A stretch of DNA of 64,000 bases, from NCBI RefSeq assembly GCF_029227855.1, contig NZ_CP074356.1; one strand, given 5' to 3'. Position numbers: made by a program. The stretch is from Escherichia coli (lineage in GTDB: Bacteria; Pseudomonadota; Gammaproteobacteria; Enterobacterales; Enterobacteriaceae). Shown one piece after another: positions 24,001 through 27,000 of the stretch (position 1 is its first letter; each line of letters begins with the position of its first letter).

Positions 24001-27000
24001 CGTCTCGTTAGGCGAAATAGAGCGTGCGTTGGCGGCGGGTTACAATCCGCAAACGTACCCCGATGATATTGTTTTTACGGCAGATGTTATCGATCAGGCG
24101 ACGCTTGAACGCGTCAGTGAATTGCAAATTCCGGTGAATGCGGGTTCTGTTGATATGCTCGACCAACTGGGTCAGGTTTCGCCAGGGCATCGGGTATGGC
24201 TGCGTGTTAATCCGGGGTTTGGTCACGGGCATAGCCAAAAAACCAATACTGGTGGCGAAAACAGCAAGCACGGTATCTGGTACACCGATCTGCCCGCCGC
24301 ACTGGACGTGATACAACGTCATCATCTACAGCTGGTCGGCATTCACATGCACATTGGTTCTGGCGTTGATTATGCCCATCTGGAACAGGTATGTGGTGCT
24401 ATGGTGCGTCAGGTCCTCGAATTCGGTCAGGATTTACAGGCTATTTCTGCGGGCGGTGGGCTTTCTATTCCTTATCAACAGGGTGAAGAAGCGGTTGATA
24501 CCGAACATTATTATGGTCTGTGGAATGCCGCGCGTGAGCAAATCGCCCGCCATTTGGGCCACCCTGTGAAACTGGAAATTGAACCGGGTCGCTTCCTGGT
24601 AGCGCAGTCTGGCGTGTTAATTACTCAGGTGCGGAGCGTCAAACAAATGGGTAGCCGCCACTTTGTGCTGGTTGATGCCGGGTTCAACGATCTGATGCGT
24701 CCGGCAATGTACGGTAGTTACCACCATATCAGTGCCCTGGCAGCTGATGGTCGTTCACTGGAACACGCACCAACGGTGGAAACCGTCGTCGCCGGGCCGT
24801 TATGTGAATCGGGCGATGTCTTTACCCAGCAGGAAGGGGGAAATGTTGAAACCCGCGCCTTGCCGGAAGTGAAGGCAGGGGATTATCTGGTACTGCATGA
24901 TACGGGGGCATATGGCGCGTCAATGTCATCCAACTACAATAGCCGTCCGCTGTTACCAGAAGTTCTGTTTGATAATGGTCAGGCGCGGTTAATTCGCCGT
25001 CGCCAGACCATCGAAGAATTACTGGCACTGGAATTGCTTTAACTGCGGTTAGTCGCTGGTTGCATGATGACTTGCCTCCAGCGACGGAGTTGACACTGAA
25101 TGGCGACGTACCAGCGTCGGACTAAAGACATTAGTGATTTCCGGGAGAGGGCGATTATCCGCCAGTGCCAAAGCCAGTTCGGCAGCCTGCGTCGCCATCG
25201 TCACGATTGGGTAACGCACGGTGGTCAGGCGCGGACGCACATAGCGTGACACCAGCACATCATCAAAGCCAATTAACGAAATCTCACCCGGTACATCAAT
25301 ACCATTATCATTGAGAACGCCCATCGCACCCGCCGCCATTGAATCGTTATAACAGGCTACCGCAGTGAAATTTCTGCCTCGTCCCAAAAGCTCGGTCATT
25401 GCCTGTTCGCCGCCGCTTTCGTCTGGTTCGCCAAATGTCACCAGCCGGTCATTGGCCGCAATACCACTTTCAGCAAGGGCATCGTAATACCCTTGCAGAC
25501 GATCTTCGGCGTCAGAAATAGAGTGGTTAGAACACAGATAACCAATGCGGGTATGACCTTGCTGAATTAAATGACGCGTTGCCAGCCAGGCACCGTAACG
25601 ATCGTCCAGAGCAATACAACGGTTTTCAAAGCCAGGCAGGATACGGTTGATCAGCACCATACCGGGCATTTGTTTCATTAATGAGGCTAAATCGGCATCC
25701 GGTATCATTTTGGCATGGACGACCAACGCAGCACAGCGATGGCGGATCAGTTGCTCAATAGCCTGACGCTCTTTTTGTTCGTTGTGGTAACCGTTGCCAA
25801 TCAATAAAAAATTACCAGTGTGATAAGCCACCTGTTCGACCGCTTTCACCATTGCACCGAAAAACGGATCGGAAACATCACCAACGACCAGACCGACCGT
25901 TTCAGTGGTCTGCTGCGCCAGCGCACGGGCGTTGGCGTTCGGGTGATAGCTAAGAGACTCCATTGCACTATGCACAGCAAGCCGTGAAGCTTCGCTGGCT
26001 TTGGGTGAATTATTAATGACGCGGGAAACGGTGGCGACTGAAACGCCTGCCAGTCGGGCTACATCCTTTATGGTCGCCATGAAAATACCTTAGTGGGTAA
26101 ACGCTTACATTCTTTCAGTGTTACGGAAAACGCCCGTTGGTTCAAGGGGTGGCGTGTTTTCATCGTGGGAATGTGAGCCAAACGCAAATAAGTAAGACAA
26201 AAAAAGAGATTGCAAACCTTTGGTTACACTTTGCGAAACGCTGTTGCGATTGACCGCTGGTGGCGTTTGGCTTCAGGTTGCTAAAGTGGTGATCCCAGAG
26301 GTATTGATAGGTGAAGTCAACTTCGGGTTGAGCACATGAATTACACCAGCCTGCGCAGATGCGCAGGTTTTTTTTTGCCGGTCATCAATCTGTAACAGTA
26401 ACCGACAATTTACACACCTCGTTGCATTTCCCTTCATTCCTTTGCGTTTTCTCGCTGGCGAAGAGTCGTCGTGCAGACCACAATCAAGATCCCAGAGGTA
26501 TTGATTGGTGAGATTATTCGGTACGCTCTTCGTACCCTGTCTCTTGCACCAACCTGCGCGGATGCGCAGGTTTTTTTTGTGCACAGAAAACCCCCAGCTA
26601 GGCTGGGGGTTCCGGAAAGCTTTCAGCTTTGAGCCAGTTATTAAAACCCCTTTTGATTTGTTAAAACACTTTGCGGTCTGGCAACTGCAAGTGTCAAACA
26701 AGAAATCAAAAGGGGGTCCCAATGGGGAACGAAAAGAGCTTAGCGCACACCCGATGGAACTGTAAATATCACATAGTTTTTGCGCCAAAATACCGAAGAC
26801 AGGTGTTCTACAGAGAGAAGCGTAGAGCAATAGGCAGTATTTTGAGAAAGCTGTGTGAGTGGAAAAGCGTACGGATTCTGGAAGCTGAATGCTGTGCAGA
26901 TCATATCCATATGCTTGTGGAGATCCCGCCCAAAATGAGCGTATCCGGGTTTATGGGATATCTGAAAGGGAAAAGCAGTCTGATGCTTTACGAGCAGTTT

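What the first reader, a model, noticed from the sequence alone, without database searches (positions are those of the whole stretch)
26294..26588. Tandem paralogous sRNAs OmrB and OmrA with conserved ends and divergent cores
Two about 85-95-nt units about 200 bp apart share a near-identical 5' end (CCCAGAGGTATTGAT[A/T]GGTGA) and 3' terminator (CCTGCGC[A/G]GATGCGCAGG plus T-run) but differ in the middle. This is the textbook OmrA/OmrB pair; both appear intact despite the adjacent IS200.
Basis: partly seen in the sequence, partly recalled or inferred. Interest (0 to 1): 0.45.

Follow-up and report, generated by a model that had tools for sequence, protein, structure and literature searches.

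The report
OmrB and OmrA small RNA pair
These are the well-known E. coli regulatory small RNAs OmrB and OmrA, both unchanged from the reference strain; the IS200 mobile element next to them sits exactly at the end of OmrA's terminator and leaves the RNA untouched, so the finding is ordinary.

Summary
Confirmed and already known. Window 26294-26375 (+) is OmrB (82 nt) and 26491-26578 (+) is OmrA (88 nt). Both are 100% identical to E. coli K-12 b4445 and b4444. Both are full-length Rfam RF00079 hits (86.1 and 96.6 bits; threshold 40). They lie in the canonical galR-aas intergenic region, which, IS200 aside, differs from K-12 by a single extra T. The two units share 20 of 21 nt at the 5' end and 32 of 35 nt at the 3' end, and differ in the core. 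The uninterrupted pair is present in 5371 of 5426 complete E. coli genomes.

The adjacent IS200 (26579-27289, 711 bp) begins at the first base after the eighth T of the OmrA terminator, so the RNA is intact. Only 8 genomes share this arrangement. In 34 others, including CFT073, IS200 sits at the equivalent position after the OmrB terminator, and at least three independent insertions are implied. In an unbiased sample from many taxa, 111 of 118 distinct IS200-group left ends abut a hairpin plus T-run, against 2.3% of control positions. IS200 therefore lands at intrinsic terminators. A recent preprint already reports this statistically.

Interest is low: a textbook sRNA pair with a minor mobile-element footnote.

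The parts
25049..26080 (-). galR, the divergent upstream neighbour
   Evidence: 343-aa ORF. Annotated as galR in the 100%-identical genome JNEC-KY178.
26081..26293 (+). galR-omrB intergenic region containing the omrB promoter; candidate -10 TAAAGT at 26282-26287
   Evidence: Identical to K-12. The -10 was read by eye at -12 to -7 from the annotated +1. The consensus sigma-70 scan finds no promoter here, as expected for an activator-dependent promoter. OmpR and RstA dependence comes from the literature (PMC5175337, PMC13425233).
26294..26375 (+). OmrB sRNA, 82 nt: 5' seed region 26294-26314, divergent core, terminator hairpin 26348-26369, T-run (T9 here, running to 26376)
   Evidence: RF00079 86.1 bits, model positions 1-87. 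100% identical to K-12 b4445. Terminator-like site. Fold -26.6 kcal/mol, z -2.9, with the first few 5' nucleotides unpaired.
26377..26490 (+). Spacer containing the omrA promoter; candidate -10 CACAAT at 26479-26484 with a C just upstream
   Evidence: Identical to K-12. The -10 was read by eye. Sigma-S dependence of omrA and the role of the upstream C come from the literature (PMC12692685).
26491..26578 (+). OmrA sRNA, 88 nt: 5' seed region 26491-26511, divergent core with internal hairpin 26520-26536, terminator hairpin 26551-26572, T8
   Evidence: RF00079 96.6 bits, model positions 1-87. 100% identical to K-12 b4444. Terminator-like sites. Fold -29.5 kcal/mol, z -2.7, with the 5' 15 nt unpaired.
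26579..27289 (+). IS200 (IS200C type), 711 bp, inserted directly after the OmrA T8: left-end hairpin 26589-26611, STnc490/tnpA 5'UTR 26589-26712, tnpA 26722-27180, right-end hairpin 27262-27280
   Evidence: The K-12 empty site reads T8|CGCACC, with no target duplication. RF01405 144.6 bits. TnpA matches NF033573 at 147.7 bits against a cut-off of 55. Annotated as an IS200C transposase in the identical genome.
27290..27376 (+). 87-nt aas upstream region, now separated from omrA by the IS
   Evidence: Identical to the K-12 omrA-aas spacer.
27377..29536 (+). aas, the downstream neighbour on the same strand
   Evidence: 719-aa ORF. Annotated as aas.

Best explanation
The locus encodes the two paralogous Hfq-dependent trans-acting small RNAs OmrB (26294-26375) and OmrA (26491-26578). 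Each has its own promoter and its own Rho-independent terminator, in the galR-aas intergenic region of an E. coli chromosome. From the literature: both are activated by EnvZ-OmpR, omrA additionally depends on sigma-S, and omrB responds to RstA. The shared single-stranded 5' end base-pairs near the translation start of many mRNAs (ompT, cirA, fecA, fepA, ompR, csgD, flhDC, dgcM and others). This blocks translation and leads to RNase E-dependent decay. The divergent cores give each sibling private targets; OmrA, for example, pairs with btuB through its core. The shared 3' hairpin plus U-tail is the terminator and Hfq-binding module. The neighbouring IS200 is an incidental, lineage-restricted insertion. 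It landed on the T-run of the OmrA terminator because IS200-group single-strand transposons insert next to a hairpin plus T-run. It leaves the RNA, its eight-T tail and both promoters unchanged. Shown here: identity, integrity, synteny, population conservation, the exact junction and the terminator association of IS200. Inferred from the literature on identical sequences: expression, regulation and targets.
For: Rfam RF00079 hits of 86.1 and 96.6 bits, full length. 100% identity to K-12 omrB and omrA. The whole intergenic region minus the IS is identical to K-12 except for one extra T. The uninterrupted pair is present in 5371 of 5426 complete E. coli genomes, with 5304 best matches at >=99% identity. 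Predicted folds show an unpaired 5' seed and a terminator hairpin. In 27 distinct Omr units from metagenomes, the terminator stem has 3 pairs with compensatory double changes and none broken. Mechanism literature: PMC2588501 (5' end pairing, Hfq, RNase E, ompR feedback), PMC5175337 (OmpR-dependent promoters), PMC13425233 (separate promoters, RstA specific for omrB), PMC12692685 (review; 88 and 82 nt, divergence after nt 21). IS200: the junctions T8|GTGCAC...TTATT|CGCACC compared with the K-12 empty site; TnpA family match; 111 of 118 distinct IS200-group left ends abut a hairpin plus T-run against 2.3% of controls.
Against: No expression data for this strain could be examined. The consensus promoter scan finds no sigma-70 promoter upstream of either gene, although that is expected for activator-dependent promoters. 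The sequence downstream of the OmrA U-tract is changed by the IS, so a small effect on termination efficiency cannot be excluded.
Confidence: 0.97

Rival explanations
1. The IS200 insertion functionally alters OmrA, through weaker termination, a read-through product or altered Hfq loading, or alters aas expression. The pair would then be intact in sequence only.
For: The 12 nt after the U-tract change from CGCACCTAATTT to GTGCACAGAAAA. aas is left with only 87 nt of native upstream sequence. The IS ends carry terminator-like hairpins (PMC4513863).
Against: The transcribed sequence, hairpin and eight-T tail are unchanged. Any read-through would be stopped about 33 nt later by the IS200 left-end terminator (PMC4513863). 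In K-12, aas also has only those 87 nt between it and omrA. The arrangement persists in 8 genomes, and the analogous one in 34.
Confidence: 0.1
2. IS200 lies at the terminator only because insertions elsewhere are purged by selection. On this view it is survivorship, not a targeting mechanism.
For: Positions just after terminators are neutral. The preprint 10.1101/2025.07.22.666184 interprets upstream terminators as limiting transposase expression.
Against: The left end abuts the T-run to the base in 94% of 118 distinct sites across unrelated taxa, whereas selection alone would scatter copies through intergenic DNA. T-runs next to the IS have a preceding hairpin in 92% of cases, against 18% of other T-runs in the same loci. 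The same relative position was hit in both Omr terminators.
Confidence: 0.1
3. The IS200 reached the OmrA site from the OmrB site (or the reverse) by homologous recombination between the near-identical Omr 3' ends, not by separate transposition events.
For: The IS copies of the window and CFT073 are identical, with 0 differences in 711 bp. The two terminators differ by one loop base. The repeated ends do recombine: one genome has collapsed the pair to a single OmrB followed by the OmrA downstream flank.
Against: The right flanks (TGCCGG and CGCACC) share no homology, so no simple double crossover moves the IS. A second IS variant, 28-30 differences away, also occurs at both sites. One OmrA-site copy has a different junction, T8-ATTT|IS|T-CGCACC.
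Confidence: 0.05
4. The repeat is a chance similarity, or an assembly duplication rather than two genes.
For: None found.
Against: 0 matches expected by chance for either shared motif. The same two-gene arrangement is found in 5371 finished genomes and in other species, with spacings of 197-274 bp.
Confidence: 0.005

Closest known systems
OmrA (b4444) and OmrB (b4445) of E. coli K-12; Rfam RF00079
   Same: Identical sequence, lengths (88 and 82 nt), order, orientation and flanking genes. Identical promoter regions apart from one T in the OmrB T-run.
   Different: OmrB is followed by T9 rather than T8; T9 is the majority E. coli allele. A 711-bp IS200 separates omrA from aas.
CFT073-type galR-aas locus (IS200 after OmrB)
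   Same: The same IS200 (0 differences in 711 bp), the same orientation, and the same junction position after exactly eight T's of an Omr terminator.
   Different: The insertion is after OmrB, between the two sRNA genes (34 genomes), rather than after OmrA (8 genomes).
IS200 of Salmonella / IS1541 of Yersinia (IS200 group of the IS200/IS605 family)
   Same: About 710 bp, a single tnpA gene (NF033573), a left-end terminator hairpin at about nt 11-33, an SD-sequestering 5'UTR (the STnc490/art200 region), a right-end hairpin, and no target duplication (PMC4513863).
   Different: None of note. It is annotated as IS200C. A second variant about 4% divergent occupies the same sites in other strains.
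IS608/ISDra2 single-strand 'peel and paste' transposition (my own knowledge: Barabas et al. 2008, Ton-Hoang et al. 2010)
   Same: The left end is joined 3' of a short target on one strand. Subterminal hairpins have a short guide-like motif 5' of their foot (GAAAA at both ends here). The top strand lies on the G-rich strand, i.e. the lagging-strand template.
   Different: The apparent target is a T-run preceded by a host hairpin, not a fixed tetra- or pentanucleotide. The guide-target pairing is inferred here, not tested.
Other tandem sibling sRNAs, e.g. PrrF1/PrrF2 of Pseudomonas (my own knowledge)
   Same: Adjacent duplicated sRNA genes with overlapping targets and separate promoters.
   Different: An unrelated sequence family with different regulators. 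Cited only as an analogy.

Membership tests
OmrA-B sRNA family (Rfam RF00079) | Covariance-model score at or above the curated gathering score (40 bits) over the full model | tested here: met
   86.1 bits (26294-26375) and 96.6 bits (26491-26578), model positions 1-87 of 87.
OmrA-B sRNA family (Rfam RF00079) | Sequence identity to the experimentally defined genes omrB (b4445) and omrA (b4444) | tested here: met
   82/82 and 88/88 identical.
OmrA-B sRNA family (Rfam RF00079) | [quoted passage not shown] | tested here: met
   galR 25049-26080 (-), aas 27377-29536 (+).
OmrA-B sRNA family (Rfam RF00079) | Conserved 5' end (nt 1-21) that carries the target-pairing seed, without mutation | tested here: met
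   The 5' 21 nt of each are identical to K-12. Predicted unpaired for the first 15 nt in OmrA and the first 6 nt in OmrB. Functional importance from PMC2588501.
OmrA-B sRNA family (Rfam RF00079) | Rho-independent terminator with a U-tail (Hfq-binding 3' module) | tested here: met
   9-bp GC-rich stems followed by T9 and T8. Compensatory changes in the stem across species. Hfq binding itself is not testable here.
OmrA-B sRNA family (Rfam RF00079) | EnvZ-OmpR-dependent transcription as discrete ~82-nt and ~88-nt RNAs | not testable with these tools
   The promoter DNA is identical to K-12, where this is documented (PMC5175337, PMC2588501). No expression data for this strain.
IS200 group, IS200/IS605 family | Y1 (HUH) TnpA transposase of the IS200 type | tested here: met
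   NF033573 at 147.7 bits against a cut-off of 55. RefSeq calls the identical protein an IS200C transposase.
IS200 group, IS200/IS605 family | About 0.7 kb, subterminal hairpins at both ends, no terminal inverted repeats, no target-site duplication | tested here: met
   711 bp. Hairpins at 26589-26611 and 27262-27280. Comparison of filled and empty sites with K-12 shows a clean insertion with no duplication.
IS200 group, IS200/IS605 family | tnpA 5'UTR / STnc490 (art200) region | tested here: met
   RF01405 at 144.6 bits against a gathering score of 56, full length.
IS200 group, IS200/IS605 family | Strand-specific insertion of the top strand into the lagging-strand template | tested here: inconclusive
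   The window + strand has positive GC skew throughout and carries the IS top strand. This is consistent, but it is one locus only and no replication data were examined.

The most novel reading that the evidence does not exclude
IS200-group transposases may recognise intrinsic terminators as a structured single-stranded target: a host hairpin followed by a T-run on the lagging-strand template, read by the GAAAA motif 5' of the IS end hairpins. The duplicated Omr terminators would then be a natural recurrent hot spot, hit at least three times independently. The locus offers matched filled and empty sites for testing this. The statistical association is already in a preprint. The structural target rule, the guide-pairing idea and the Omr hot spot are not described in anything I could read.
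Probability: 0.55. Interest if true: 0.4.

Novelty: already known. Interest (0 to 1): 0.12.

Why it matters
For the finding itself, very little. It correctly re-identifies a textbook sRNA pair and shows it is unaltered, which is useful mainly as annotation, because RefSeq lists no feature there in the non-K-12 genomes I looked at. The side result has some value. IS200, a famously 'silent' element, sits precisely at host terminators. That would explain both why it is harmless to neighbours such as OmrA and why its transposase is shielded from outside transcription. sRNA genes end in strong terminators, so they are natural landing pads, and this is worth remembering when sRNA 3' ends are annotated next to IS200 copies.

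Tried and rejected
1. The sigma-70 consensus scan of 26000-27450 found no promoter for either sRNA. I treat this as uninformative for activator-dependent promoters and give the -10 elements by eye only.

2. I asked whether the T9 after OmrB is an IS200 excision footprint, because CFT073 reads T8|IS|T. Rejected: T9 is the majority allele in E. coli, including lineages such as O157:H7, and K-12's T8 is the minority.

3. My first terminator rule (an 8-nt T window) under-counted, giving 71%. It failed when fewer than 8 nt lay between the stem and the IS. I replaced it with a tail-based rule and re-ran the controls.

4. The first flank comparison between strains was misaligned (lower table) and was discarded. 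The anchored comparison replaces it.

5. The E. coli IS200 copies behind sra, glyS, gnd and a phage Q gene were picked up because BLAST extended into terminator-like flanks. They are a biased sample, so I did not use them for statistics.

6. The 15-mer metagenome scan gave mostly chance hits: 92 of 120 loci had no Omr unit. Because the pattern fixes the first 15 nt, conservation of the 5' end in that sample proves nothing.

7. Literature searches for an explicit statement that IS200 or IS1541 targets terminators found only the 2025-26 preprint. Odaert et al. 1998 is not held.

8. Movement of the IS between the two sites by homologous recombination was considered and judged unlikely, because the right flanks share no homology.

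Full report
**Observation.** The sequence at 26294-26588 holds two same-strand units, as described. The shared 5' motif CCCAGAGGTATTGATNGGTGA occurs exactly twice in the 64-kb window, at 26294 and 26491 on the + strand, with none expected in 100 dinucleotide-preserving shuffles. The shared terminator motif also occurs exactly twice, at 26350 and 26553, with none expected. A pairwise alignment gives 20 of 21 identical bases at the 5' end and 32 of 35 at the 3' end, with a core that aligns only through gaps. The units are 82 and 88 nt, 197 bp start to start, with a 115-bp spacer.

**Identity.** A gathering-threshold Rfam scan of the whole window reports two full-length OmrA-B (RF00079) matches. 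One is at 26294-26375 with 86.1 bits and the other at 26491-26578 with 96.6 bits; the threshold is 40. The K-12 MG1655 record annotates omrA (b4444, 88 nt) next to aas and omrB (b4445, 82 nt) next to galR. The window units are base-for-base identical to omrB and omrA respectively. The flanks are galR (25049-26080, -) and aas (27377-29536, +). With the IS removed, the 585-nt galR-aas intergenic region is identical to K-12 except for one extra T in the OmrB T-run. Both promoter regions are therefore intact. T9 is in fact the majority E. coli allele.

**Conservation.** The 285-bp omrB-omrA segment is found in 5423 of 5426 complete E. coli genomes. It is uninterrupted in 5371, and 5304 best matches are at >=99% identity. 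A metagenome scan with the first 15 nt returned 28 loci with genuine Omr units, from other enterobacteria judging by their divergence. Pairs lie 197-274 bp apart. In 27 distinct units the terminator stem shows three pairs with compensatory double changes and no broken pair, and the GGUG/CACC closing helix is invariant. The first 15 nt were fixed by the search pattern, so their invariance in that sample is not evidence.

**How it works.** Predicted folds give OmrB -26.6 kcal/mol (z -2.9) and OmrA -29.5 kcal/mol (z -2.7). In each, the 5' end is unpaired (the first 15 nt in OmrA, the first 6 in OmrB) and is followed by a central stem-loop and the terminator hairpin with its U-tail. The literature on these identical sequences supplies the mechanism:

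- Both sRNAs bind Hfq and pair through their conserved 5' end with ompT, cirA, ompR and other mRNAs near the translation start. Repression requires Hfq and RNase E, and a 5'-end mutation abolishes control of all targets tested (PMC2588501).
- Both are transcribed from their own EnvZ-OmpR-activated promoters and feed back on ompR (PMC5175337).
- The two promoters have different conserved motifs, and RstA specifically activates omrB (PMC13425233).
- omrA is sigma-S dependent, and the divergent core of OmrA gives it private targets such as btuB (PMC12692685).

By eye, -10 elements lie at -12 to -7: TAAAGT at 26282-26287 for omrB, and CACAAT at 26479-26484 for omrA. The consensus sigma-70 scan found nothing, which is normal for activator-dependent promoters. 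Expression in this strain is inferred, not shown.

**The IS200 junction.** IS200 occupies 26579-27289 (711 bp). Its features are:

- a left-end hairpin at 26589-26611;
- an STnc490 (RF01405) match at 26589-26712, 144.6 bits;
- tnpA at 26722-27180, matching NF033573 at 147.7 bits against a cut-off of 55;
- a right-end hairpin at 27262-27280.

K-12 reads ...GCGCAGG-T8|CGCACCTAATTT. The window reads ...GCGCAGG-T8|GTGCACAG...ATATTTATT|CGCACCTAATTT. The insertion is clean, has no duplication, and starts at the first base after the annotated OmrA 3' end. The RNA, its hairpin and its eight-U tail are unchanged.

**Population picture of the insertion.** Forty-two of 5426 genomes carry an IS200 in this intergenic region. 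Junction-specific queries split them into two groups. Eight have the window arrangement, with the IS after OmrA. Thirty-four, including CFT073, have the IS after exactly eight T's of the OmrB terminator, reading T8|IS|T-GCCGG. Two IS200 variants differing at 28-30 of 711 positions each occur at both sites. One OmrA-site copy (strain HCP5S3) has a different junction, T8-ATTT|IS|T-CGCACC. The right flanks share no homology, so recombination cannot simply move the element. At least three independent insertions at the two paralogous terminators are implied.

**Why there.** The first additional E. coli copies I saw also abutted terminators (behind sra, glyS, gnd and a phage Q gene), but BLAST flank extension had selected them. 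For an unbiased sample I scanned species-representative genomes with a 21-mer lying wholly inside the IS left end. This gave 120 loci: about 45 Yersinia pestis IS1541 copies, plus Vibrio, Brenneria, Dickeya, Pluralibacter, Edwardsiella and several Bacillota, Desulfovibrionaceae, Oxalobacter and other MAGs.

- Of 118 distinct left flanks, 84 (71%) pass a strict terminator rule, against 0.69% of 20,000 random positions in the same loci.
- 111 (94%) pass a rule that measures the tail from the stem to the IS boundary, against 2.3% of controls.
- A T-run alone does not explain this. T-runs next to the IS have a preceding hairpin in 68 of 74 cases (92%), against 18% of 7811 other T-runs in the same loci.
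- Both IS ends carry GAAAA immediately 5' of their subterminal hairpin. In the IS608 paradigm (my own knowledge) that is where the guide reading the cleavage site lies, which would fit a T-rich target on the left and the TTATT right end. This is inference.
- The window's + strand has positive GC skew throughout. The IS top strand therefore lies on the lagging-strand template, in line with the known bias of this family.

A 2025-26 preprint already reports terminator-like sequences over-represented just upstream of ISs, most strongly for IS200/IS605 (10.1101/2025.07.22.666184). A report that IS1541 sits between pheL and pheA in Yersinia fits the same pattern (PMC3082878). The association is therefore not new.

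**Consequences of the insertion.** These are inferred. Read-through from omrA, if any, would now meet the IS200 left-end terminator about 33 nt downstream (PMC4513863) instead of running toward aas. aas keeps the same 87 nt of upstream sequence that separates it from omrA in K-12. I rate a functional effect on OmrA or aas as unlikely (about 0.1), but it is untested.

**Verdict.** This is the known OmrB/OmrA pair, unaltered. The novelty class is 'already known' and interest is low (0.12). The only mildly interesting element is that the twin Omr terminators are recurrent landing sites for IS200, which illustrates a terminator-directed insertion preference of the IS200 group.

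Noticed in passing
window 26571-26590; L002 1787-1806: IS200 starts exactly after eight T's of the OmrA terminator here (8 genomes). It starts exactly after eight T's of the OmrB terminator in CFT073 and 33 other genomes. Two IS variants about 4% apart occur at both sites, implying at least three independent insertions.
   Followed up: yes
L010-L129 (IS200-group left ends in species-representative genomes): 111 of 118 distinct IS200/IS1541 left ends abut a GC-rich hairpin plus T-run, against 2.3% of control positions. 92% of the T-runs next to the IS have a preceding hairpin, against 18% of other T-runs. The statistical trend is in a recent preprint; the precise target rule seems not to be described.
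   Followed up: yes
window 26584-26590 and 27255-27261: Both IS200 ends have GAAAA immediately 5' of the subterminal hairpin. It is conserved across the left-end variants sampled. It is a candidate guide sequence reading T-rich cleavage sites (the flanking T-run on the left, TTATT at the right end).
   Followed up: partly
L085 about 270-350 (Yersinia pestis): One IS1541 copy is inserted directly after the right end of another copy (...CCGGAGGATATTTATT|GTGCCCAG). The IS right end (hairpin plus T-rich tail) itself mimics the preferred target.
   Followed up: no
L130 783-830 and 1496-1545 (strain HCP5S3_I2): The OmrA-site IS200 has an atypical junction, T8-ATTT|IS|T-CGCACC. This adds 5 extra bases relative to the empty site and may be a remnant of an earlier IS right end.
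   Followed up: partly
L255 2501-2600 (E. coli isolate 30345_1#186): This genome has a single Omr gene: an OmrB body and terminator joined to the OmrA downstream flank (T8-CGCACC). This is a 197-bp collapse of the pair by recombination between the repeated ends. At least 10 further genomes also lack an uninterrupted pair; they were not examined.
   Followed up: partly
window 26368-26376: The OmrB T-run is T9 here and in most E. coli genomes, but T8 in K-12. This is a length polymorphism in the U-tail.
   Followed up: yes
L149, L179, L196, L207 (metagenome contigs): In another enterobacterial lineage, two diverged Omr copies lie about 2.04 kb apart and flank an ftsI-like penicillin-binding-protein gene. 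They sit between a bisC/torA-like reductase gene and mdtA, so this is not the galR-aas neighbourhood.
   Followed up: partly
window 26589-26712: The Rfam STnc490 match is on the + strand, which is the tnpA sense strand. The literature describes art200/STnc490 as antisense to the tnpA 5'UTR, so the strand of the Rfam model and that of the described sRNA appear to differ.
   Followed up: no
window 1-16000: This is a low-GC (0.34) region encoding an apparently intact ETT2-type type III secretion cluster: EscR/S/T/U-like, PrgH/EprH, needle, inner rod and EscJ-like proteins, ygeH and ygeG. K-12 retains only remnants of it (my own knowledge).
   Followed up: partly
window 60330-60535 (-) and 55713-56005 (-): There is a full-length GcvB sRNA (199 bits) and three tandem tRNA-Met genes. 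Both are as expected for this chromosomal region.
   Followed up: no
L001, L002 and the hit tables: RefSeq annotation lists no feature under omrA or omrB in the non-K-12 genomes shown ('none'). These sRNA genes are therefore systematically unannotated outside K-12.
   Followed up: no
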